NCBI GenBank assembly: GCA_964016885.1
Contig: OZ024747.1
Coordinates: 44,020,001 to 44,084,000, forward strand
Length of the DNA stretch: 64,000 nucleotides
Direction: 5' to 3'
From: Eledone cirrhosa
Lineage: Eukaryota
The notes under the pieces: model-generated
The model's database searches: none
What the model was told of the DNA's origin: nothing
What the model saw: the letters and a program-made list of their open reading frames with translations, nothing else
Shown: positions 635 to 55,654 of the stretch, one piece after another
Position numbering within the stretch: position 1 is the stretch's first letter
How the letters are laid out: each line of letters begins with the position of its first letter
Position numbers and translations under genes: made by a program

Positions 635-682
<48 letters not shown>

Positions 683-688
<6 letters not shown>

Positions 689-1690
689 AATTAGTATATC
701 TACTAACATATATATACAGATGCATACCTATGCCAGCAAATATATAGGTTTTGTCTTAGTAACTTTGTGGTTCAATGCAAGGGGATGCCGAACAATAATA
801 TGAAAAACGTAAAATAAGAAAATTATAAAAATTAACTTACTAAAATTTCACTCCAACTAATTAGTTTCTGAAAGGGAATAAACATGGTTTCCGAAGAAAC
901 GCACGGAGAAATCCTTTCGTCATCAGGGAAGTCTATTCTCAGCTAAGTTTCCAGGCAATGCGTGGACACAGGGAACTTATACAAAAATAATTCAGTGGAT
1001 GGAAAAAAGCAAAGCGTAGACTAAGTCCAGCAAATATATAGGTTTTGTCTGAGTAACTTTGTGGTTCAATGCAAGGGGATGCAGAACAATAATATGAAAG
1101 ACGTAAAATAAGAAATTTTAGTAAGTAAGTTAATTTTTATAATTTTCTTATTTTACGTCTTTCATATTATTGTTCGGCATCCCCTAGCATTGAACCACAA
1201 AGTTACTAAGACAAAACCTATATATTTGCTGGCATAGGTATGCATCTGTATATATATGTTAGTAGATATACTAATTCTTTATAATTATCTCCAAATTATT
1301 TTGTTGAGCAAAAATTTGCCAAAACTGCTACTATAGTTCATAGTAATGGTTCGGCTGCTGTCTTCTTAACACACCACTCCTCACTGATTAACCTCGAAGT
1401 CACGTGATTGATTCTTTTGAATTTGCCACCGACCGAGTAGGCAGTGATTTTTTCAATGTCTTGGAACTTAGTCCACGCTTTGCTATTTTCCATCCACTGA
1501 ATTATTTTTGTATAAGTTCCCTGTGTCCACGCATTGCCTGGAAACTTAGCTGAGAATAGACTTCCCTGATGACGAAAGGATTTCTCCGTGCGTTTCCTCG
1601 GAAACATTGTTTATTCCCTTTCAGAAACTAATTAGTTGGAGTGAAATTTTAGTAAGTAAGTTAATTTTTATAATTCTCTTATTTTACGTC

Positions 1691-1697
<7 letters not shown>
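683..1697. mobile_element. Non-autonomous PLE-like element: inverted partial copy plus ~531-bp partial tandem unit, two HHR motifs, in (TA)n
   Basis: 683-840 is the reverse complement of ~1125-1281. ~810-1027 is the reverse complement of ~1467-1697. 1113-1165 recurs directly at 1644-1697. CTGATGA (1566)...GAAAC att GTT (1601-1611) on +, mirror copy ~875-940 on -. (TA)n on both sides. Confidence 0.75.
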
Positions 1698-1731
<34 letters not shown>

Positions 1732-1831
1732 AATATAGATATAGAATATTCGAAAATATTCTGTATGTTTATAATAAACATTTTGAAGACCTAATCGCTA
1801 TAGAATAGAATACGTCACGTATTACAATTAG

Positions 1832-1920
1832 ATTCTCGATAAAAGCAAGGGAAGTAATCTACGCGTTTCATTCTTGTTAGAATTCATCAGGACTACATAT
1901 CCAGTGCTTTTATCGAGAAT
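1832..1920 (-). ncRNA. Type I hammerhead ribozyme (first of 8 minus-strand copies, period 300)
   Basis: Minus strand reads GTAGTC CTGATGA ATTCT aaca AGAAT GAAA CGCG TA GATTAC. Helix I, core, helix II, palindromic helix III and a GUA site are present, closed by a distal perfect 16-bp helix (1832-1847/1905-1920). Confidence 0.9.
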
Positions 1921-4454
1921 GACACAGCTAGAGACTTATAGAATACTTAGCTGTGTACAGGAACTGGTTTGAAAGAGCGGTTGCCGGTCCGGCAGAAATT
2001 AGAAATTGGAATAAATGCTCTGAAATAGCGATATATATGTGAATATAGATATAGAATATTCGAAAATATTCTGTATGTTTATAATAAACATTTTGAAGAC
2101 CTAATCGCTATAGAATAGAATACGTCACGTATTACAATTAGATTCTCGATAAAAGCAAGGGAAGTAATCTACGCGTTTCATTCTTGTTAGAATTCATCAG
2201 GACTACATATCCAGTGCTTTTATCGAGAATGACACAGCTAGAGACTTATAGAATACTTAGCTGTGTACAGGAACTGGTTTGAAAGAGCGGTTGCCGGTCC
2301 GGCAGAAATTAGAAATTGGAATAAATGCTCTGAAATAGCGATATATATGTGAATATAGATATAGAATATTCGAAAATATTCTGTATGTTTATAATAAACA
2401 TTTTGAAGACCTAATCGCTATAGAATAGAATACGTCACGTATTACAATTAGATTCTCGATAAAAGCAAGGGAAGTAATCTACGCGTTTCATTCTTGTTAG
2501 AATTCATCAGGACTACATATCCAGTGCTTTTATCGAGAATGACACAGCTAGAGACTTATAGAATACTTAGCTGTGTACAGGAACTGGTTTGAAAGAGCGG
2601 TTGCCGGTCCGGCAGAAATTAGAAATTGGAATAAATGCTCTGAAATAGCGATATATATGTGAATATAGATATAGAATATTCGAAAATATTCTGTATGTTT
2701 ATAATAAACATTTTGAAGACCTAATCGCTATAGAATAGAATACGTCACGTATTACAATTAGATTCTCGATAAAAGCAAGGGAAGTAATCTACGCGTTTCA
2801 TTCTTGTTAGAATTCATCAGGACTACATATCCAGTGCTTTTATCGAGAATGACACAGCTAGAGACTTATAGAATACTTAGCTGTGTACAGGAACTGGTTT
2901 GAAAGAGCGGTTGCCGGTCCGGCAGAAATTAGAAATTGGAATAAATGCTCTGAAATAGCGATATATATGTGAATATAGATATAGAATATTCGAAAATATT
3001 CTGTATGTTTATAATAAACATTTTGAAGACCTAATCGCTATAGAATAGAATACGTCACGTATTACAATTAGATTCTCGATAAAAGCAAGGGAAGTAATCT
3101 ACGCGTTTCATTCTTGTTAGAATTCATCAGGACTACATATCCAGTGCTTTTATCGAGAATGACACAGCTAGAGACTTATAGAATACTTAGCTGTGTACAG
3201 GAACTGGTTTGAAAGAGCGGTTGCCGGTCCGGCAGAAATTAGAAATTGGAATAAATGCTCTGAAATAGCGATATATATGTGAATATAGATATAGAATATT
3301 CGAAAATATTCTGTATGTTTATAATAAACATTTTGAAGACCTAATCGCTATAGAATAGAATACGTCACGTATTACAATTAGATTCTCGATAAAAGCAAGG
3401 GAAGTAATCTACGCGTTTCATTCTTGTTAGAATTCATCAGGACTACATATCCAGTGCTTTTATCGAGAATGACACAGCTAGAGACTTATAGAATACTTAG
3501 CTGTGTACAGGAACTGGTTTGAAAGAGCGGTTGCCGGTCCGGCAGAAATTAGAAATTGGAATAAATGCTCTGAAATAGCGATATATATGTGAATATAGAT
3601 ATAGAATATTCGAAAATATTCTGTATGTTTATAATAAACATTTTGAAGACCTAATCGCTATAGAATAGAATACGTCACGTATTACAATTAGATTTTCGAT
3701 AAAAGCAAGGGAAGTAATCTACGCGTTTCATTCTTGTTAGAATTCATCAGGACTACATATCCAGTGCTTTTATCGAGAATGACACAGCTAGAGACTTATA
3801 GAATACTTAGCTGTGTACAGGAACTGGTTTGAAAGAGCGGTTGCCGGTCCGGCAGAAATTAGAAATTGGAATAAATGCTCTGAAATAGCGATATATATGT
3901 GAATATAGATATAGAATATTCGAAAATATTCTGTATGTTTATAATAAACATTTTGAAGACCTAATCGCTATAGAATAGAATACGTCACGTATTACAATTA
4001 GATTCTCGATAAAAGCAAGGGAAGTAATCTACGCGTTTCATTCTTGTTAGAATTCATCAGGACTACATATCCAGTGCTTTATCGAGAATGACACAGCTAG
4101 AGACTTATAGAATACTTAGCTGTGTAGAGGAACTGGTTTGAAAGAGCGGTTGCCGGTCCGGCAGAAATTAGAAATTGGAATAAATGCTCTGAAATAGCGA
4201 TATATATGTGAATATAGATATAGAATATTCGAAAATATTGTAATACGTGACGTATTCTATTCTATAGCGATTAGGTCTTCAAAATGTTTATTATAAACAT
4301 ACAGAATATTTTCGAATATTCTATATCTATATTCACATATATATCGCTATTTCAGAGCATTTATTCCAATTTCTAATTTCTGCCGGACCGGCAACCGCTC
4401 TTTCAAACCAGTTCCTGTACACAGCTAAGTATTCTATAAGTCTCTAGCTGTGTC

Positions 4455-4543
4455 ATTCTCGATAAAAGCACTGGATATGTAGTCCTGATGAATTCTAACA
4501 AGAATGAAACGCGTAGATTACTTCCCTTGCTTTTATCGAGAAT
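4455..4543 (+). ncRNA. Type I hammerhead ribozyme (first of 3 plus-strand copies; also 4755-4843, 5055-5143)
   Basis: CTGATGA 4485-4491, GAAA 4506-4509, GTA 4513-4515. Same sequence as the minus-strand copies. Confidence 0.9.
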
Positions 4544-5294
4544 CTAATTGTAATACGTGACGTATTCTATTCTATAGCGATTAGGTCTTCAAAATGTTTA
4601 TTATAAACATACAGAATATTTTCGAATATTCTATATCTATATTCACATATATATCGCTATTTCAGAGCATTTATTCCAATTTCTAATTTCTGCCGGACCG
4701 GCAACCGCTCTTTCAAACCAGTTCCTGTACACAGCTAAGTATTCTATAAGTCTCTAGCTGTGTCATTCTCGATAAAAGCACTGGATATGTAGTCCTGATG
4801 AATTCTAACAAGAATGAAACGCGTAGATTACTTCCCTTGCTTTTATCGAGAATCTAATTGTAATACGTGACGTATTCTATTCTATAGCGATTAGGTCTTC
4901 AAAATGTTTATTATAAACATACAGAATATTTTCGAATATTCTATATCTATATTCACATATATATCGCTATTTCAGAGCATTTATTCCAATTTCTAATTTC
5001 TGCCGGACCGGCAACCGCTCTTTCAAACCAGTTCCTGTACACAGCTAAGTATTCTATAAGTCTCTAGCTGTGTCATTCTCGATAAAAGCACTGGATATGT
5101 AGTCCTGATGAATTCTAACAAGAATGAAACGCGTAGATTACTTCCCTTGCTTTTATCGAGAATCTAATTGTAATACGTGACGTATTCTATTCTATAGCGA
5201 TTAGGTCTTCAAAATGTTTATTATAAACATACAGAATATTTTCGAATATTCTATATCTATATTCACATATATATCGCTATTTCAGAGCATTTAT

Positions 5295-5375
<81 letters not shown>

Positions 5376-10601: not shown

Positions 10602-10696
10602 AAAAATTTGGAACGCTTCACGAATTTGCGTGTCTTCCTTGCGCAGGAGCCATGCTAACATTCTCTGTATCGTTCCAATTTTAGTAAATGTACTCC

Positions 10697-10698
<2 letters not shown>
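10602..10698 (-). pseudogene. U6: U6 snRNA pseudogene, 5'-truncated
   Basis: Minus strand ...TACTAAAATTGGAACGATACAGAGAATGTTAGCATGGCTCCTGCGCAAGGAAGACACGCAAATTCGTGAAGCGTTCCAAATTTTT matches metazoan U6 (ACAGAGA box, AGC triad). The first ~10 nt are replaced by (TA)n, and GGATGAC>GGAAGAC alters the bulged U of the internal stem-loop. Confidence 0.9.
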
Positions 10699-10740
<42 letters not shown>

Positions 10741-20383: not shown

Positions 20384-20413
20384 GGAACAATTATATATAT
20401 ATATTATATATAT

Positions 20414-20484
20414 TAGTTTTAATATAGATGAGATTCTACAGGACTAGAACTGTTTCATTCTTTAGAAATCATCAGGAATCTATT
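20414..20484 (-). ncRNA. Hammerhead motif, same family as 39614-39751
   Basis: CTGATGA tTTCT aa AGAAt GAAAC a GTT. The flank is identical to 39614-39680. Confidence 0.6.
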
Positions 20485-21366: not shown

Positions 21367-22093
21367 TGTATATATCACAGAAAACAGAGAATCAGTGCTA
21401 CAGGTTCTTTCTTTTTCTTTTTCCTTTTCTTTTTGAAATGAAATATGTATGGCGGAGTGCATCCTAAGGCTGTGTCCTACAAATGTTACGCTAAATATCT
21501 CCATGATTGGTGTTTTTTATTTTAAATTGCCGCAAAACATTATTTATGATGACTGCCGCAGACAGCATAATTGCGGGTGTGTACCTGACCGATGTAGACT
21601 AAGGCCCCTAGGAGCAATGAAGACGTCGAAGTGATGCCAGCCGTTCAAGATTACAGCCCCTCTCCCACCACAGTAGTAATTCTGATACAGGAAGAAATTT
21701 TGATTGACAGGTGGAGAACGAGAAGAAGCAAGAAGTGGGCAACCATGAGTGGCTAGAAAAACTGGTGACGTGTACAATTCTTGACCACTCATGGAATGGC
21801 AACAACAGGATCTAAATCAACAAACGAAGAAATTCGATGTTAAAGGGCTATAGGAAAAATCTGTTTCGTAGAATCGAGACGTATCTGACAACCGAGAGAT
21901 TTCAGAGTCAGGTTTGATCACCACATCGATCGTGCCTCGAGCTGGTCGCCCGAGAAACAATTGTAATATGTCCAATAAATTATTTTCGTCGCAACACAGA
22001 TTCTCTTTTTTCTGTGATATAATACTCTGCACTACGAGGGCATTGAGTGCTCATGCGGCCTACCGCATACGGACGCTTTAAGCATCCTACACC

Positions 22094-22130
<37 letters not shown>

Positions 22131-34916: not shown

Positions 34917-35348
34917 TTATGGAGGATAAGTGTCTGAAAGTGTGTTAAGTTTATATGAGCTGGAAAGCAGGTGTGATTTCATGTGTGGGCAACTGGTAAA
35001 AGTTTCCGTCTTTGTGTACAGGCAGGTCTTTGGTGATTTGAGATTTTGCAATATCCAAAATTTTTCATTTATGCAGAGCGTGCATTTTCTTGTTCCTCTA
35101 GCATATTTTTTAGATTGGTTCAAAATTGACCAATCTAGTTTATATTGGATGCCTTGGTCTTTCAAATCCCAGATTCTGCTAGCCAGAGCTGTTGTAAATC
35201 TTTTTTCTGGATGTCGAAAGGATGCGACATGTGAGTAATAACGCGTTTTGAATTTGTCTTGCGTCATACCCACATATCGTTCACTGGTGACTGGATGGCT
35301 CCATATGCATTTAGTTGAGCTATTTCTCTTGTCCATTATCCATATCAC
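34917..35348 (-). pseudogene. PLE (Neptune-type) GIY-YIG endonuclease C-terminal fragment
   Basis: YVGMTQDKFKTRYYSH..SF, LASRIWDLK, LDWSIL, RKCTLCINEK, C-P-H. Confidence 0.85.
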
Positions 35349-35349
35349 A

Positions 35350-36932
35350 ATGGAAAAACAATACTTGGGAACTTCTTTAAAGAATATACCAATACCTTCT
35401 AAGGATGACTTCTTATTCCTTATGATACAGAAAACTAACCAATTTATCAGAAGAGTTAGATGGAGGGCCTACCACTTCGATAAAAAATCTAAATATGCAG
35501 ATAGGAAATATATGTATGATTTCACTACTTACAAGAATCCACCACACAACTCTCTACTTGAAGACTTTGAGAAAGACCTTTTTAATTTAATTAAACACCT
35601 CAAATTTAAGAAGTATAAATCTATCTTTCAAAAGGACCTTGATTCTACCCTATTGGACCTAAAAAAGTCTAAAAAAATCCATGTCCACTCGGACAAAACT
35701 GGAAACTTATATCACATGGATATTGAAAATTATAATGAGTTCATATATAAAGAACTCAGGAAAAATTATAGAAAAACTAATAATGCGTCACTCACCAACA
35801 TCAACAACAAAACACACAACATAGTGAATAAACTAAATATTGAAGATAGAACTGAACCTTTGGCATTGAAAAGACCACACTTCAACCTGAAAGATCATAA
35901 ATCAAACTTTAACTCAAATCCTTCTATAAGACTTATATGTCCCTCCAAATCTGATATTGGAATAATTAGCAAAAAAATTTGGATAGAGTCATCCCACAAA
36001 TAAGAAAACATGTTAATTTACCACTCTGGGAAAACACTTCCCAGGTAATTAACTGGTTTAAAAATATTAGATGTAAATCTTCTGCTTCATTTCTACAATT
36101 TGATATAGATAATTACTATTCTTCTATATCACCTATACTCCTGAACAAAGCTTTTATATTTGCTAAAAATAGATCTAACTTAACTTTGGATGACATTAAT
36201 ATTATTACACATGCTAGACTAACACTTATTGAATTTCAGAATGAATACTGGACCAGAAACACATATAGTAATCTATTTGATATTACTATGGGTTCAAGCG
36301 ATTCTGCCCAAATTACTGATCTTGTGGGCCTCTTTCTTCTTTTTAACATAAATGCTTCCTTTCCCCACCTTAAAGGTGGTTTATATCGTGATGACTGTCT
36401 TCTTCTTTCCAACAACCTTAGCCTCTCAGAAATAGAAAAAAACAAAAAGCTTATTAGAACTTTCCTTAAAGACTATTATAGTCTTCATATTACTTTTGAA
36501 AACACAAGTAAAGTAGTTAATTTCCTAGATATAACTTTAGACTTAGCTACGGGTATCTACGAACCTTACCATAAACCCAACCAAAACTTACAATACATAC
36601 ACTCACAATCTAATCACCCTAAATCTATCCTTAAAAACCTTGCATATAATATATCACTTAGAATTTCTAACCTTTCGTCTAACCAAGATGTATTTGATAA
36701 AAATGCGACCTTCTATAACGAAGCTCTAGATAGAAGTGGCCACAAAAATAGATTGGAATATATACCTTCTACTAATAACACTATAAACATACAACCTAAT
36801 ATTACCAACAAACACCAAATGAAAAGTACACACCTAAATGCCACTCACACTATACCCCAAAATACCAACATAAAACCAAATTTCTCTAACTCCTCTAATA
36901 TAAAGTATAGTAACTCTCAAAAAACTTTTTAA
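35350..36932 (+). pseudogene. PLE (Neptune-type) reverse transcriptase, one frameshift at ~35980, lacks in-line endonuclease
   Basis: SLKNIPIP, FIRRVRWRA, SDKTGNLY, LKDHK, FDIDNYYSSI, MGSSDSAQ, GLYRDD, NFLDITL, YHKPN, SNHP. Confidence 0.9.
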
Positions 36933-39284: not shown

Positions 39285-39389
<105 letters not shown>

Positions 39390-39580
39390 GTATATATACT
39401 GTATGTTTATAATATAATGTATGTTTATTTTAAAGACTTTTGAAGACCATTCGCTAAGGGTTTGATTGAAACTCATAGCGAATTGTCTTCAAAATGTTTT
39501 TGAATAAACATACAGACAGTATATTATCAAATATACTATACGTATATTCATACATACATCGCTATTTCAGAGCACCAATA

Positions 39581-39613
<33 letters not shown>

Positions 39614-39617
<4 letters not shown>

Positions 39618-39751
39618 TTAATATAGATGAGATTCTACAGGACTAGAACTGTTTCATTCTTTAGAAATCATCAGGAATCATCAGGGATTCCTGATGATTT
39701 CTAAAGAATGAAACAGTTCTAGTCCTGTAGAATCTCATCTATATTAAAACT
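39614..39751. mobile_element. Perfect hairpin element with head-to-head HHRs
   Basis: 39614-39680 is the reverse complement of 39686-39751. CTGATGA 39691, GAAAC 39710. Confidence 0.8.
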
Positions 39752-39817
39752 TTTATACTCTGCAATGTATTGAGTACCTTACTTACTGTGGTTACCTCCG
39801 TTTCAACACGGAATAAC

Positions 39818-43608: not shown

Positions 43609-44291
43609 ATAGATTTAGGAACTTGAATGACCATGTAGATTTAGGAACTTGGTTGACCATGTAGATTTAGGAACTTGGTTGACCATGTAGATTTAGGAAC
43701 TTGGTTGACAATGTAGATTTAGGAACTTGGTTGACAATGTAGATTTAGGAACTTGGTTGACCATGTAGATTTAGGAACTTGGTTGACAATGTAGATTTAG
43801 GAACTTGGTTGACCATGTAGATTTAGGAACTTGGTTGACCATGTAGATTTAGGAACTTGGTTGACAATGTAGATTTAGGAACTTGGTTGACCATGTAGAT
43901 TTAGGAACTTGGTTGACAATGTAGATTTAGGAACTTGGTTGACAATGTAGATTTAGGAACTTGGTTGACAATGTAGATTTAGGAACTTGAATGACCATGT
44001 AGATTTAGGAACTTGAATGACCTTGTAGATTTAGGAACTTGAATGACCATGTAGATTTAGGAACTTGGTTGACCATGTAGATTTAGGAACTTGGTTGACA
44101 ATGTAGATTTAGGAACTTGGTTGACAATGTAGATTTAGGAACTTGGTTGACAATGTAGATTTAGGAACTTGAATGACCATGTAGATTTAGGAACTTGAAT
44201 GACCTTGTAGATTTAGGAACTTGAATGACCATGTAGATTTAGGAACGTGAATGACCTTTTAGATTTAGGAACTTGAATGACCATGTAGATT
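43609..44291. repeat. 26-bp minisatellite, ~26 copies (ATGTAGATTTAGGAACTTGGTTGACC)
   Basis: Exact 26-bp period with GGTT/GAAT and ACC/ACA variants. Confidence 0.95.
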
Positions 44292-49076: not shown

Positions 49077-52000
49077 TTACAGACACATACTCAGAGAAGG
49101 CCCATTCATTCGGGCCATACTTGCTTCTCTCACCCATCTTTCAACAAAATGCTGGGAAGAGAGCACTTCCCTCTCTACCCTGATTTTCCTTTTCAAATGA
49201 AATTTGAAAAAGTTAATCAGGGCATCACCGAAGAGGTAAGTGCTCGTCTTCAGCCCTTTCAAACGTGTCCACCATACTATCTCTTTCGCCATGGCCACCA
49301 GACAGATAAAAACTGCCTGCCCTTCCAGGCTAAAGGAAGGGGGCGGGGCAATCCTCACGATGGACTCAGCTGATAGCTGGATCCGTCCTACACGTGACAG
49401 CAGGTGTTCGACATAAACCCACAAGTCAGCAATGCTCGGACACTGGACGAGTGCGTGCAGGACGGTTTCGTCGCCCTGCGCGCATCTCGGACATGCCCGG
49501 CTGACGGCACCTCCATGCCTGTAGAGTTTATCCCGAACTGGCAAAGCTCCTCGGTAGCACTGCCAGGCCAGGGATTTCTGGAAGTTGTCCATAGGCCCCG
49601 GCCCGAAAGTCCTTCCGAAGAGATTGGCTGGTTGATTTTCGTCGACGCCTAGAGTTTCTCCAAGTACGTCGTCGCTCTTCCCCTCCACTAATCCCCTATA
49701 GAACGCCAAGGTGGAGTTTCCACCGATCACATTGCCCGATTGGTCGAGGGCTGTGAGCGCCTGAAGACATTCCAGTCTCCAAGCGCTCCCTCTCGGTCTT
49801 CGCTTGACCCAGGACTGCAGCTCCGTTAAGGAGACGAGCTGGGGAAAAACGTGTCTTGCAAACGGCGACCACACCTGATCACCGTCGAGGAAGAGGTGGA
49901 GATGTCGTAGCCTGAGCGCGTGCATCATCAGCCACGGCATGCCCAGCCCTCCACGTAGCGGGTGTTGACAGCAGATGGACCGCCTGACCATCGGAGCGCG
50001 TCCCTTCCACAAGAAGCGAAAGAGCAAACGCTCCAGCGCAGTCAGGCGGGGCTTAGGACAAGGTACGACGGTCAGGCGGTAGTAGAGGACGGATGCGATG
50101 TACGCATTCGCCACCTCCGCTCGACCTTTCAGGGATAGCTTCCTCTCGGCCCATTTCTGGGTGAGAGAAGCCACCCTGCTCGTCACCTCGTCCCAGTTTT
50201 TGTCCGCCTGGAGGTCTGGACCGAACCAGACCCCTAGCAATTTAACCGGTCCGTCCGTCCAGCGCCCGACGACGCTGTTGGACGGCATGGACCTGCCTCT
50301 CCAGGTGCCGAGCTGCAGGCCCACTGACTTTTCCTGGTTGATCATTGCTCCTGTCACCGCTTCGTATTCTCTTAGTGTAGTGCCGATCGCCTCGATGTGT
50401 TTGGCGTTCGACACCACTACGGTGACATCGTCGGCATATGCTGACACGGATCTTCCGCATCCTAGTTCGCGCGGGACCCCCCTCAACGTCTCCAGTTTGT
50501 GCAGTAATGGCTCGAGAGTCAATACGTACAATAGGGACGAGAGGGGACATCCTTGGCGGACCGAGCGCATGATGTTGAACGGTTCCGAAAGGTGACCGTT
50601 CACTCTCACTACAGAGCAGATGTCGCTGTGCGTGGCAGCGATCCAGCCTCTGAAGACGGGCCCAAAGCCAGCCGCCCTCAGGACTGCCGTTAGGTAACGA
50701 TGGTCGACCCTATCGAAGGCTTTCGACTGATCTAAATTGATCAAAGACCCACCCGTGCCAGGTTCCCTAGTTACGATGTATCGCATGAGGTGGAGTTGTC
50801 GTGGATGGATCTGTCGGGAATGGCGCATGTCTGTGCCTCTCCCACCAGACCACCAACGACAAGCGCCAACCTCTTTGCTAGCACCTTGGCCAAAATCTTG
50901 AACTCTGTGTTTAGCAGAGTTATGGGCCTAAAATTATCTATGTTATCCCCCTTGTTCGGATCCTTTCTCAGCAGCGCCACCGCTCCTCGGCTCACAGAGC
51001 TGGGAATTCTCCCGTTCCGTTGCCAGTTGCAGTAGACGTCCGCCAAGAGGCCTCCGAACAAGTTTGGCATTTGTACGTAAAGTTCATAGGGCAGACCATC
51101 CAAACCAGGCGATTTACCCCTTGTGCAACTAGTCATTGCATCCCGTACTTCAGCGGTTGTTATCGGCTTTTCGCAACACTCCGCCTCAGTGGCCGAAAGC
51201 CGCGGCAGTCCGTCGAGGTAGACACTAAAGTCCATCCCTCGATCCGGCCCGCCACTGCCCCCGAACAGTTGAGCGAAGTGTCGCTGAAAAGCTTCACACA
51301 TTTGCCCGGGATCGAGTAGTATGCGCCCGTCGTGGTCCACCAAAGACCGGATCGTGGCTTTGTTGCCACGACGCGCCTCCACCACTCGGGCCCATTGAAC
51401 GGCTTTCGTCCCCTCGTGTCTGAGAGCACGCACCCTAGCTCTGACAACGCAGCCTTCGTGCTTTGCATTGAAGAATTGGTCAAGGGCCAATTTCGCCGCA
51501 AGTACGTCGGTTGCGATGCCTTTGCTAAGCGCCTCATCTAATTTTCTAACTAATTCTCCCTCTGCTCTATTTTTCTCTATTGCTAAAGTCTTACTAAACC
51601 TAATGGACTCTATTCTAATTGCTCTTTTCAGAGCAAACCACCACTTGTTGTTGACGATGGCTCCCGTCAACGCCCGCATAACTAGTTCGCTAATCCGGTC
51701 TCTGTAGGCCTTGCGCGCTGGTAAGGACGCGTTTAACTTCCAGTAGCCGGGTCCTCGTCTATGAAGCCTATCTAAGTCAAGCACACAGATCACGAATTTG
51801 TGGTCCGTGTAGCTGACTATCTTGAATTGTGGACAGCTATGCTAGACCTATCTATTTCCCTACAAAATACTCTATCTAGATATGATCTGGATGACCCTAT
51901 GCGATTTGTCCAAGTCCACATTGGTACATTCGGGAAATCTAATCGGTACCTGTCAGACAGTTCAAAACGCCTGAGCAGGTTGGTGAGACTCTTGCACCCT

Positions 52001-52480
52001 CCTTCCCTATCAACTAATCCCACACAATCCCAGCGTGCATCTAAGATCCCGTTCCAGTCGCCCACTAACACTAAAGAGCGGGACGTTCCAAGAAAGGTCT
52101 CCAGACGCCGGAAGAAATCAGGCCGCCCTGCTCCTGTCGGGGCATAGACGGCCACTAACCTGAAAGCTTGCCCGTCTCCGCTGGTCACGTCCAGCACCAC
52201 CAACTTACCTTCTGGGTCCAGGAAGATGGCCCGTATGGCAAGATCCAAACCTCTCCGAAAAAGCACAGCAACTCCTCCCCCCCGATCCCGGACGGCTGGG
52301 AGATGCGTACACATCGTAGCCGCCGAAGATCGGTGCGAAAGCCTGTGCTTCGGAGATTCTGGTCTCGCTGATGGCCACTACATCTATGTTTAGTGACCTG
52401 AGGTCGTTGAGCAGGTGGCCCTGCTTCCATGACGACCCCAAGCCACGCGCATTTATGCTGCCTATTCTGAGTGAGGTCAT
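49077..52480 (-). pseudogene. Tx1/L1-type ORF2 (APE endonuclease, RT, C-terminal zinc finger), about 3 frameshifts
   Basis: SINARGL, ISETR, VYAP, GDWN, YLDRVF, WKLN, KSPGLDG, FRPITLLNTEFKIL, LDQSKAFDRV, VRQGCPLS, YADD, CPRC..ETVLHALVQC. Confidence 0.92.
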
Positions 52481-52590
52481 GTTGAAAAGGAGTGGAAAAG
52501 ATGGGAAAGACCACTTACCTTACTTCTCGTAGGGGAAGGACGGCTTTTCCATCCTTTTCACTGCTTGTGGCCTCCTCAGGAAGGATGTCC

Positions 52591-54521
52591 TTATAAATCC
52601 TCCTGGAGAGTGCTTGTCGGAAGTCTCCGATGTCTTTGGGGAATTTTTGTTTTAGTGTCATGTACGTTTTCTGTGTGATGCGAGTGATTTGTATGTGTGG
52701 AGGTGGTGTGAATTTTGGGGTTGTTGTGTAGTCTTTTTTTTGTGATGCTGGTGTTGTGTTGGATGTAGTGTAATAATTGCTTGTTGTTCAAATTTAATGC
52801 TGTGTAGTGTGTATCGTTTTGGTTGTTTTGTTTTGTTTGCGTTTGTTGTGGGTTTGTTTCTGTTTCGCATTTTGGTGACTTTTGTGGTGTAGGTGATGGT
52901 GGTGCTGGGGATAATGATGGTGATGGTGTTGGTGTTTGGGTTGATGGGGTTGGTGATGCTGGTGTGGATGGTGGCATATCTGTCCTAACTTTTTTGTTTC
53001 TTAGTTTATTTGTTTCCCTCTGTATTTTGTTTTTGGAGGGGGAAGGAAGAGAATTTTTTCTTTTTTGGTTTCTTTTTTTTTTTTCGGATATCGTTTCCCA
53101 CTCCTCGTCGTCACAATCTGTCTCCAGTTGTGATAGGCCGGGGAGTGGAAAATCCTCCACAGCCGTTAGTTTTGGTTGTGGTGTGGTGGATGGTGTAGGC
53201 GCTGGTGCTAGTTCTGAAGCGTTGGGTGGTGGTGGTGTTGGTTTTGCTAGTGGTGGTAGTGGTGTTGGTTTTGCTACTGTTGCTGGGGTTGTTGCTGTTA
53301 TAGTTGCTTCTGTTGTTGCTGCTACAGTTGTTGCTGCCATCTCTGCTACTGGTGGTGTTGATGGTTGTGTCACTGGGGTGGGTAGGAGAGGTGGCCTCAA
53401 CCTTTTAGCCTGAGGGCAGAAAGCCCTTAGGTGGGTTCCTTCACCACAAACGACACACCTAGGTCTTCTGCCCTCGACAATTACCGTGAGGTGGCTGCCG
53501 TGAGGTCTATTACCTCTGGGATCTCCTCAATGCTTTTTTGGTCCGCTTTGATCAGGAGCTCCATCCCAGATCCGGACCAGTTTTCCTGCTTTTCTTTTGC
53601 TATTGCTATTATTTTCGTGTTGGCTTCGATGCCGGCGAGGACAGCCGCTATTAGCCAGGGAATTTCGATGGCCGGTGGAACGTGGGTCACCCTGATCTTT
53701 ACGAGTCTCTGGCCACAATAGCTTGGGACGAGTGTGAAGTCGTCACTTTTTAATGGGGCCATGGAGTGTTCTCTAGCCTCCTCTTGTGTTTCAAAGAACA
53801 CATCCACGGTTCCATACTTTTGCCCACGTCTGATGTGGGTTTTTCTTGCCCACACATGTCCCAAAGCTTTTGGGATTTGGGACTCGGATGCCCGTTCCAC
53901 TCGGCGCGATTTTACATTTATTGTTCTATACGACACGGTGCATAGGCGCCGATGCTCCATTTTATTAGGTGGGGGGTGAGGCTGACCCTGTACCCATCTT
54001 TCTTTACCATTTGTTTGGCATTTTCTAAATCTTCCTGAGTTACCGTGAATGCTTCGAATTGTTTTGCTACTCTGGCGCAACTGAGGGGGGGGGTTTATAA
54101 TGTCATTGTTGTTGTTGTTGCTATCGTTATTTGTGTTAATATTAATTTTAGTTTCAGTTGTGGTGGTGGTGACGTCAGTCGTCTTTGGTGCGGAAGAGTC
54201 CATTTTGCTTGATTTCATTTCGACATCACGAGTTAATTTATTTTTTTCTTCTTTTGTTTCTGTTGTCGCGGTGGTGGTGGGGGTGGTGGTTGTCGCGGTG
54301 GTGGTGGTGGTGGTGGTGGTGGTGGTGGAGGCTTTAACACCTGCAGTCATTGGTAATGGCGGGAAATGAATGTCTGCCTGAGACAAATTTAAAATATTGC
54401 TACTGCTTATATTTTTTTTTGTGTTGGCAAACGTAGTAACATTTACAATGGTGGTGTCGGTGTGAGGTGTTAATTTGTGAGGAAGGCTTTCAGCTGCTTG
54501 TTGCAGAGGTGAATTAGCCAT
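52591..54521 (-). pseudogene. Tx1/L1-type ORF1, frameshifted, with gag-like zinc knuckle
   Basis: CVVCGEGTHLRAFC (CX2CX4HX4C) at ~53416-53457 lies between the two reported ORFs. Thr/Pro-rich low-complexity flanks. Confidence 0.75.
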
Positions 54522-54730
54522 TTTTTTTTCAAAGAAATTTTTTGATAATAATAAAAGTTAAAATTTTGGGCACAAGGCCCCAATCTTTTTGGGTGTCCTT
54601 TTCGGAAAACAATGTATGTGTTTTTATAAACAGTTAACAATAAAATTTTCCATAAATGGTAATTTTTAACAAACGGAAATAACAAACCTTTGCGGAGCTC
54701 ACGATGATACGATTTACTACGTAGGTCGCC

Positions 54731-54763
<33 letters not shown>

Positions 54764-54764
54764 A

Positions 54765-55645
54765 ATAGGCCAGGGATTTTTGGAAGTTATCCATAAGCCC
54801 TGGGCGGAAAGTTCTCCGGAAGAGATCAAGCAGCTGATCTTCTTCGACGCCCAGGATCTCACCGAGAACGTCGCCGCTCTTCCCCTCCACTAGTCCTCTA
54901 TAGAACGCAGAGGTGGATGTTCCACCGATACTGGTGCCCAGCTGGCAGAGGGCAGTGAGCGCCTGGAGACATTCCAGTTTCCAAGCGCTATCCCTCGGTC
55001 TTTTTCTGACCCAGGACTGCAGCTCCGTCAAGGAGACGAGCTGTGGGAAAACGTGCCTGGCGAACGGCGACCACACCTGTTCACCGTCAAGGAAGCACCA
55101 TAGATGTCGCAGCCTCAGCGCATGTTTGCGCATCATCAGCCATGGCATGCCCAGTCCTCCACGCAACGGGTGTTGACAGCAGATGGATCGTTTGACCATG
55201 GGAGCGCGTCCCTTCCACAAAAAGCGGAAGAGGAGGCGCTCCATTTTGGTGAGAGTTGGGCCGGGCAAGGGACAACAGTGAGGCGGTAGCAGATGACGGA
55301 TGCGATGTACGCATTCGCCACCTCCGCCCGGCCTTTCAAGAACGGCTTCCTCTCGGCCCATTTCTGGGTGAGGGAGGCCACCTTGCTCGTCACCTCGTTC
55401 CAGTTTTTCTCCATCTGGAGGTCCGATCCGAACCAGACCCCGAGCAATTTAACCGGTCCGTCCGTCCAACGTTCCACGACGCTGTCGGACGGCATGTACT
55501 TGCCTCTCCAGGTGCCGAGCTGCAAGCCCACCGACTTTTCCTGGTTTTTCTTTGCTCCTGTCACCGCTTCGTATTCCTTGAGAGCGGTGCCGAGCATCTG
55601 GACGTGTCTGATGCTCGACACCACTACGGTGACGTCGTCGAAGGC
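54765..55645 (-). pseudogene. Second, diverged Tx1/L1-type ORF2 internal fragment
   Basis: Clear paralogue of ~49565-50435 (DDVTVVVS, NQEKSVGLQLG, LLGVWFG, GGLGMPW, DNFQKSLA). Confidence 0.88.
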
Positions 55646-55654
55646 CAGCATTTA

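What the first reader, a model, noticed from the sequence alone, without database searches (positions are those of the whole stretch)
1729..5300. Young 300-bp ribozyme concatemer: candidate retrozyme producing a 300-nt circular RNA
Seen: each of about 12 nearly identical non-coding 300-bp units carries a complete type I hammerhead (11 in all), predicted to cut after GUA (1860/1859 on -, 4515/4516 on +). Helix I continues through a UAU bulge into GGA/UCC and then a perfect 16-bp stem, the layout that allows helix I/loop II tertiary contacts. Helix III is only the palindrome ACGCGU, which favours dimeric folding between neighbouring units. Known: non-LTR retrozymes are tandem HHR repeats of this size that yield circular RNAs and are thought to use PLE machinery. 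Inferred: the array is a recent insertion made by an RT running repeatedly around a circular template.
Basis: partly seen in the sequence, partly recalled or inferred. Interest (0 to 1): 0.9.

Follow-up and report, generated by a model that had tools for sequence, protein, structure and literature searches.

The report
Ribozyme repeats copied in two-armed arrays
This is one of more than a thousand young genomic insertions of a 310-base non-coding repeat carrying a hammerhead-ribozyme motif, nearly all built as two back-to-back arms with fixed outer ends, a footprint likely left when a Penelope-type reverse transcriptase primes on both DNA strands and runs repeatedly round a predicted small RNA circle.

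Summary
Real feature. The unit is 310 bp (not 300), with 11 hammerhead cores. The array is two arms joined 5'-to-5' (8.1 and 3.4 units), not one concatemer.

The family has about 15,000 units, and 1,119 insertions end at exactly the same base into (AT)n. Of the first 43 on one contig, 39 are two-armed. In an identity-selected set, 23 of 23 arrays with both ends visible have one short end (about q127-139) and one long end (about q165). This is the Penelope-like element (PLE) 'tail plus inverted copy' signature.

Variants are mostly fixed through a whole array. Both arms share a haplotype in 29 of 31 arrays (chance 0.09), and single-unit changes are strand-biased like reverse-transcriptase errors. 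Older subfamilies show compensatory changes (C3-G8 or U3-A8) and mostly keep a palindromic helix III. The tandem dimer's best predicted fold is a double hammerhead.

Verdict: a very young non-LTR retrozyme family, likely inserted by twin-primed rolling-circle reverse transcription by a PLE enzyme. Retrozymes are known; this insertion architecture was not found in the retrozyme papers searched. Cleavage, circular RNA and the partner PLE remain unshown.

The parts
1721..4239 (-). Short-end arm, 8.1 units of 310 bp. Its outer 3' end merges into (TA)n at unit position q132-139 (q1 = base after the predicted cut, window 4516 on the + arm); its inner 5' end is truncated at q100.
4237..5300 (+). Long-end arm, 3.4 units. 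Inner 5' end at q32; outer 3' end at q165 into (AT)n.
4237..4239 (.). 5'-to-5' junction of the two arms, with a 3-bp overlap
4455..4543 (+). One complete type I hammerhead: 16-bp stem, 2x2 loop, GGA/UCC, UAU bulge, 6-bp helix I, core, 5-bp helix II, palindromic helix III. Predicted cut 4515/4516.
4485..5135 (+). Three plus-strand ribozyme cores (4485-4515, 4795-4825, 5105-5135)
1860..4060 (-). Eight minus-strand ribozyme cores (1860-1890 through 4030-4060, every 310 bp)
5194..5280 (+). End module (q59-145), present in every unit. Predicted three-way junction with two hairpins, conserved across subfamilies; candidate RT-recruitment site (inferred).
5275..5300 (+). 'Tail': the 26-38 nt between the two end registers, present at one outer end only
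1695..1720 (.). Left (TA)n target, itself the flank of a different PLE-like element at 682-1698
5301..5375 (.). Right (AT)n target

Best explanation
This is a young, dispersed family of 310-bp non-coding hammerhead repeats inserted as two back-to-back arms with fixed outer ends, likely made by a Penelope-like element (PLE) enzyme copying a predicted 310-nt RNA circle. Shown: the architecture, copy number, end registers, haplotype patterns and structural covariation. Inferred cycle: (1) an array is transcribed as a multimer; (2) neighbouring ribozymes pair through the palindromic helix III and cut after GUA, releasing a monomer whose ends are held together by helix I and the long stem; (3) a host ligase closes it, and the lone circle cannot form helix III, so it persists; (4) a PLE endonuclease/RT, probably a dimer, binds the end module, nicks both strands of a (TA)n tract and primes once on each strand, at about q127-139 and about q165; (5) each RT goes round the same circle a variable number of times (under 1 to over 24 units); (6) the two cDNAs are joined 5'-to-5' by end joining, often with short microhomology.
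For: Architecture: 39 of the first 43 long-end sites on C1 are two-armed and divergent; the others are 1 one-armed, 1 at a gap and 2 running off the stretch. In a set chosen by identity, not by end, 23 of 23 arrays with both ends in view have one short and one long end. 1,119 insertions end exactly at q165 into (AT)n, control 0. Arm lengths are uncorrelated (rho -0.03, n=25), which argues against snap-back copying. PLE RT was shown in vitro to nick and extend both strands of AT-rich DNA and to start at two internal sites that define a 30-40 nt tail (PMC11167929). Single template: 48 arrays of 4 or more units (484 units) carry 24 majority haplotypes; variants are fixed array-wide or confined to one unit (70 cases), with only 8 intermediate patterns in 5 arrays. 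29 of 31 two-armed arrays share a haplotype across arms against 0.09 by chance. Single-unit substitutions on the sense strand are G>A and T>C 25 against C>T and A>G 6 (p 4e-4; 20 against 6 without the q120 hotspot, p 5e-3), as expected for wobble errors of an RT. None of the 70 single-unit changes lies at q308-q3. Ribozyme: among 31 variants, position 3/8 is C-G in 22 and U-A in 9, never mixed; stems I and II covary; helix III is fully palindromic in 19 and at least 0.83 palindromic in 27. The unconstrained best fold of a tandem dimer has the same energy as the enforced double-hammerhead fold.
Against: No RNA evidence was obtained. No autonomous PLE carrying this end module was found among about 15 Hydra-type families and 50 GIY-YIG loci examined; one family shares only the core and helix II. 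For the anole PLE, ribozyme cleavage was not needed and unprocessed RNA was the main substrate, and only 1 of 9 Xenopus retrozyme dimers cleaved in vitro. Five arrays have patterns that a perfect monomer circle does not give: L042 alternating, L230 two linked changes 7 units apart, L253, L057, L239. Microhomology of 2-12 bp was seen in only 9 of 25 junctions scored (18.5% expected at random); 4 of the 25 were scored as long inserts, at least 3 of them script mis-calls. Single-unit changes may include assembly errors. The 43-site sample was selected on the long end.
Confidence: 0.72

Rival explanations
1. Same twin-primed PLE insertion, but the template is a long uncleaved linear transcript of a parent array; the ribozyme is slow and circles are rare or incidental.
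For: Helix III cannot form in a monomer and most copies have a U-U pair at the base of helix II. The anole PLE uses unprocessed RNA. L230 shows two linked changes recurring 7 units apart.
Against: Linear copying cannot fix a new variant in every unit, yet there are 24 array-wide haplotypes in 48 arrays and only 8 intermediate patterns. G120A occurs as a single-unit change in several arrays and as the fixed state in others, including this one, which needs a monomer bottleneck at least at times.
Confidence: 0.14
2. The RT jumps repeatedly from the 5' end to the 3' end of a cleaved but unligated monomer whose ends are held together by helix I, so no covalent circle is needed.
For: Helix I and the 16-bp stem juxtapose the ends. 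Position q1 is substituted in 5 units of 2 arrays.
Against: No indel at the cut site among 484 units apart from fixed haplotype features. Template jumps usually add or lose bases (recalled from R2/L1 work, not tested here).
Confidence: 0.08
3. A short PLE-derived insert was amplified afterwards at DNA level (unequal crossover or extrachromosomal DNA circles), as proposed for vertebrate retrozymes in the 2026 preprint.
For: Some long arrays show irregular recurring variants (L253, L230). The model is in print.
Against: Both inverted arms are multi-unit and share one haplotype. Arrays with almost no divergence already have up to 19+11 units. The error spectrum is strand-biased relative to the RNA sense.
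Confidence: 0.05
4. Assembly artefact (collapsed or chimeric long reads giving inverted tandem copies).
For: Inverted repeats can arise from chimeric reads; one left flank is duplicated around a gap on C3 (L033/L034).
Against: Over 1,100 sites; different flanks, junctions and haplotypes in the 43 examined; an 8-12 bp target duplication at L038; short-read contigs of run X2 carry the unit at depth near 2e5 with loose ends into (AT)n.
Confidence: 0.01

Closest known systems
Metazoan non-LTR retrozymes (Cervera and de la Pena 2020, PMC7229834; Li et al. 2026, bioRxiv 10.64898/2026.07.22.740005)
   Same: 150-450 bp low-GC tandem repeats with a type I hammerhead in each unit, no protein, many dispersed loci. 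A dimer-acting ribozyme with weak palindromic helix III is as in axolotl. Circular template and PLE mobiliser are proposed there.
   Different: The text read does not describe inverted two-arm inserts, fixed end registers, tails or (TA)n targeting. There the circles were shown experimentally; here they were not. Here no pLTR parent was found, whereas 24 of 57 Xenopus families matched known TEs, mostly PLE termini.
EN+ Penelope-like elements, especially the (TA)n-targeting Hydra clade, Neptune and Naiad (Craig et al. 2021, PMC8557442; Frangieh et al. 2024, PMC11167929)
   Same: Partial tandems, an inverted 5'-truncated copy at the 5' end, a 30-40 bp tail at one end only, microsatellite targets, and a hammerhead upstream of two internal RT start sites.
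   Different: No ORF; many full units per arm, not partial tandems; canonical long helix I. In vitro the anole enzyme showed no strand preference for the two start sites, whereas these inserts use one site per arm in 23 of 23.
Non-autonomous Chlamys PLEs such as MRC1 (PMC8557442, passage read)
   Same: Non-coding PLE passengers that often give multicopy head-to-tail insertions.
   Different: Green algal; share 3' ends with autonomous families; the clade mostly lacks canonical hammerheads.
Twin-primed inverted L1 insertions (recalled, not looked up)
   Same: Two target-primed cDNAs joined 5'-to-5', often at microhomology.
   Different: L1 uses a poly(A) end plus a variable internal site on a linear RNA; here both sites are fixed and internal and each arm is multimeric.

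Membership tests
non-LTR retrozyme | Tandem repeats of 150-450 bp, GC under 50%, with a type I hammerhead in each unit | tested here: met
   310 bp, 105 of 310 bases G+C, 11 cores
non-LTR retrozyme | Non-coding | tested here: met
   longest ATG ORF 30 aa, longest stop-free frame 59 aa
non-LTR retrozyme | Many dispersed loci, dimers to multimers | tested here: met
   12,756 exact cores, 15,061 spacer matches, 1,119 long ends
non-LTR retrozyme | Ribozyme structure under selection | tested here: met
   C3-G8/U3-A8 22:9 and covarying stems among 31 variants; these are related sequences, not independent events
non-LTR retrozyme | Self-cleavage | not testable with these tools
   predicted double-hammerhead fold only
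non-LTR retrozyme | Accumulates as linear and circular monomer RNA | tested here: inconclusive
   the runs available are of unrecorded kind and cannot tell a circle from tandem DNA
non-LTR retrozyme | Target duplication longer than 4 bp when present | tested here: inconclusive
   8-12 bp at the one clear non-microsatellite site, L038; unresolvable in (TA)n
non-LTR retrozyme | No LTR, PBS or PPT | not tested
   no separate internal region between repeats is seen, but no PBS/PPT search was run
non-autonomous PLE passenger | Inverted 5'-truncated copy joined at the 5' end | tested here: met
   39 of 43
non-autonomous PLE passenger | 30-40 nt tail at one end only (two RT start sites) | tested here: met
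   ends cluster at q127-139 and q163-172; one of each in 23 of 23
non-autonomous PLE passenger | Microsatellite / AT-rich target | tested here: met
non-autonomous PLE passenger | 3' end homologous to the pLTR of an autonomous PLE in the genome | tested here: inconclusive
   only core plus helix II shared with one Hydra-type family; end module absent from the families sampled, a small share of 2,108 ORF starts and 10,596 EN candidates
autonomous PLE | RT plus GIY-YIG ORF | tested here: not met

The most novel reading that the evidence does not exclude
A currently active animal retrozyme in which a dimeric PLE enzyme loads two reverse transcriptases on a single covalently closed 310-nt RNA, about 30 nt apart, one per nicked target strand, and both roll round it. 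More than a thousand near-identical genomic inserts would then be a direct in vivo record of the unresolved PLE integration mechanism and of rolling-circle reverse transcription, with occasional dimer circles (L042) and template switches (L239) captured. The RNA may recruit the enzyme by structure alone, with no surviving parent pLTR.
Probability: 0.45. Interest if true: 0.8.

Novelty: new variant of a known kind. Interest (0 to 1): 0.62.

Why it matters
That PLE enzymes mobilise animal retrozymes through a circular RNA is a standing hypothesis resting on co-occurrence and pLTR similarity; a 2026 preprint instead attributes the tandem arrays to later DNA-level amplification. Here the inserts carry the PLE-specific tail and inversion signature and record a single template across both arms. 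This favours arrays born multimeric and shows that the two PLE start sites are used one per strand in vivo. It gives a 310-nt defined substrate with predicted start sites for an in vitro PLE assay, and accounts for about 4.7 Mb of this genome (15,061 x 310).

Tried and rejected
Rfam gathering search: no hammerhead hit.

RNA search: no RNA holder listed. Six holders of unrecorded kind in four studies under four organism codes; four were laid. X1, X3 and X6 each give one 340-base contig (310+30, a closed assembly cycle), which fits tandem DNA or a circle equally, so it is not used as evidence.

Partner search: Pfam family PF26215 is not in the library. The window's own Hydra-type PLE family (35242-36932) has no DNA match to the unit. 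Upstream regions of 50 loci from 2,108 Hydra-type ORF starts (part's output was cut and partly reprinted) and 50 of 150 GIY-YIG hits (my regex displayed only a few 3' ends, but BLAST covered all 50) showed no shared end module. Hits at L192, L211, L214 and L262 were separate retrozyme inserts near PLE copies. None of 30 loci with the older tail motif had an ORF attached.

Rejected: snap-back origin of the inversion (arm lengths independent, different outer ends); permuted ends; a general dimer-circle template (1 array of 48 alternates, with one miss).

Three look-ups of earlier findings returned nothing.

Literature searches for prior description. Supplements were not read, and Repbase/Dfam could not be searched, so the family may already be catalogued there.

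Full report
Observation. The window holds a 310-bp repeat in two blocks, 1721-4239 (8.1 copies) and 4237-5300 (3.4 copies), in opposite orientation, between (TA)n tracts. Positions within the unit are given as q, with q1 = window 4516, the base after the predicted cut. There are 11 type I hammerhead cores; the pattern gives 17 matches in the window against 0.03 expected. Helix III is two pairs around a 2-nt loop, which a monomer cannot form; it is the palindrome ACGCGU. For the natural tandem dimer, the unconstrained minimum energy equals that of the enforced double-hammerhead fold (-112.1 kcal/mol). In that fold the ends of the excised monomer are held together by helix I and the 16-bp stem. 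No ATG ORF exceeds 30 aa.

Family size. The window lies on C7 of a 3.0-Gb genome. Exact patterns give 12,756 cores with the GUA triplet, 15,061 spacer matches and 1,119 places where the unit stops at q165 and runs into (AT)n; reversed-pattern controls were 0. An older set of relatives (5,482 tail matches) shares the end module and spacer but has different ribozymes. Among 31 distinct ribozyme variants from the loci held, positions 3 and 8 are C-G (22) or U-A (9) and never mixed, stems I and II change in compensating ways, and helix III is fully palindromic in 19 while varying in length from 6 to 12 nt. One variant (L161) is only 0.46 palindromic. These are related sequences, so the counts are not independent events. 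Most copies have U-U at the base of helix II; the window's haplotype has A-U.

Architecture. In loci chosen by identity to the unit, 23 two-armed arrays had both outer ends in view, and all 23 had one end at BLAST position q127-147 and the other at q159-174. Of the rest, three were one-armed (L036, L048, L051) and five were cut by a gap, a contig end or the stretch edge. In the first 43 long-end sites on C1, 39 are two-armed with the arms joined 5'-to-5', 38 of them with the short end in view; one is one-armed, one abuts a gap, and two run off the stretch at 24.5 units. Against each array's own sequence, ends cluster at q127-139 and q163-172, with 50 at q165 (a few calls at q116-121, q137 and q140 are substitutions or junctions, not ends). 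In the first 36 Mb of the listing, 10 of 13 complete clusters are minus-then-plus and none is plus-then-minus. Inner junctions fall anywhere in the unit; 9 of 25 scored show 2-12 bp overlap against 18.5% expected, and arm lengths are uncorrelated. The one clear non-microsatellite target, L038, has an 8-12 bp duplication.

What makes such inserts. Craig et al. (PMC8557442; passages and the Hydra section read) describe PLE inserts as partial tandems with an inverted 5'-truncated copy and a 30-40 bp tail at one end, and (TA)n targeting for Hydra and Naiad. Frangieh et al. (PMC11167929; parts 1-2 of 4 read) show that a PLE protein, predicted to be a dimer, nicks and extends both strands of AT-rich DNA and starts at two internal RNA sites whose spacing is the tail. 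The present arrays match each of these features, so PLE-type twin priming is well supported, although inferred from DNA alone. The finding that each insert uses one site per arm goes beyond the in vitro result, where no strand difference was seen. The region q59-145 can fold as a three-way junction (z -2.4, weak on its own), and its second hairpin covaries across subfamilies. It is a candidate enzyme-binding site.

Template. In 48 arrays of four or more units (484 units), variants are fixed through the array (24 majority haplotypes) or confined to one unit (70 cases); 8 intermediate patterns occur in 5 arrays. Both arms share the majority haplotype in 29 of 31 arrays (17 of 18 in the C1 sample) against 0.09-0.12 by chance; a cell expressing only one source locus could also give this. 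Single-unit substitutions are biased to G>A and T>C on the RNA sense strand (25 against 6 mirror changes), which fits reverse-transcriptase wobble errors better than later DNA mutation; assembly error is not excluded. No single-unit change lies at q308-q3, though q1 is changed in 3 units of L057 and 2 of L230. All this fits many passes over one monomer, most simply a circle. Exceptions: L042 alternates at q200 with one miss, L239 changes haplotype part-way along one arm, and L230 and L253 have recurring linked changes.

What was not found. No autonomous PLE with this end module turned up in the families sampled. One Hydra-type family, with 'KNIP' ORF start at L124, shares the core and helix II but has other ends about 68 nt apart. 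The clade names for these PLE fragments are my assignment from motifs described in PMC8557442 and from recall; no tree was built and Pfam gave no hit. Cleavage and circular RNA were not shown.

Relation to print. Cervera and de la Pena 2020 (PMC7229834; passages and Discussion read) define non-LTR retrozymes, show circles in coral, mussel and axolotl, and name PLEs as the likely mobiliser. Cervera 2014 (PMC4209133; passages) describes short palindromic helix III and dimer cleavage, and proposes circular templates for PLE tandems. Li et al. 2026 (parts 1-3 of 5 read) link retrozymes to pLTRs, invoke local amplification for the arrays, and saw cleavage in 1 of 9 dimers. Searches for inverted retrozyme arrays found no description; supplements and repeat databases were not seen.

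Verdict. A new, very young family of a known class, with an insertion footprint that ties retrozyme spread to the PLE mechanism and makes both testable.

Noticed in passing
window 682-1698: A second two-armed PLE-like element abutting the array, with a 294-bp internal period and a hammerhead-like core with no helix II (cores at 926 - and 1566 +). 94 exact matches genome-wide, often as divergent pairs.
   Followed up: partly
window 35242-36932 (+) and 34917-35468 (-): Broken Hydra-type PLE ORF (family with frames up to about 830 aa, at least 140 copies at 96-99% aa identity) next to an inverted GIY-YIG fragment of another family.
   Followed up: partly
window 39358-39800 and 20412-20475: An older relative of the retrozyme end module, two-armed, beside pLTR fragments of the Hydra-type family that shares the ribozyme core.
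   Followed up: partly
G000 whole genome: Hydra-type PLEs are abundant and diverse: 2,108 ORF starts of about 15 or more families match one motif pattern; many (TA)n tracts hold nested inserts of several families.
   Followed up: partly
L042:2435-5700: A variant at q200 alternates unit by unit in both arms with one miss, and the junction is a perfect fold-back; possible dimer-circle template.
   Followed up: partly
unit position q120 in L038-L044; q1 in L057 and L230: Recurrent single-unit changes at the same base (G120A in 7 arrays; q1, the base after the cut, in 5 units): possible RT error hotspots or an unusual ligation linkage.
   Followed up: no
runs X1, X3, X6: Runs under three other organism codes each hold one 340-base contig 99% like the unit at depth 18-34, while X2 holds 591 contigs at depth near 2e5; could be related species, contamination or transfer.
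   Followed up: no
L155/L156:1547-1608, L170, window 22046-22102: Old retrozyme copies fused directly to the end module of another PLE-like family, suggesting template switching between passengers.
   Followed up: partly
window 10602-10706 (-): U6 snRNA gene or copy.
   Followed up: no
window 49077-55651: GC-rich decayed LINE-like ORFs (endonuclease and RT by eye).
   Followed up: no
window 43610-44291: 26-bp minisatellite, 26 copies, 95% matches.
   Followed up: no
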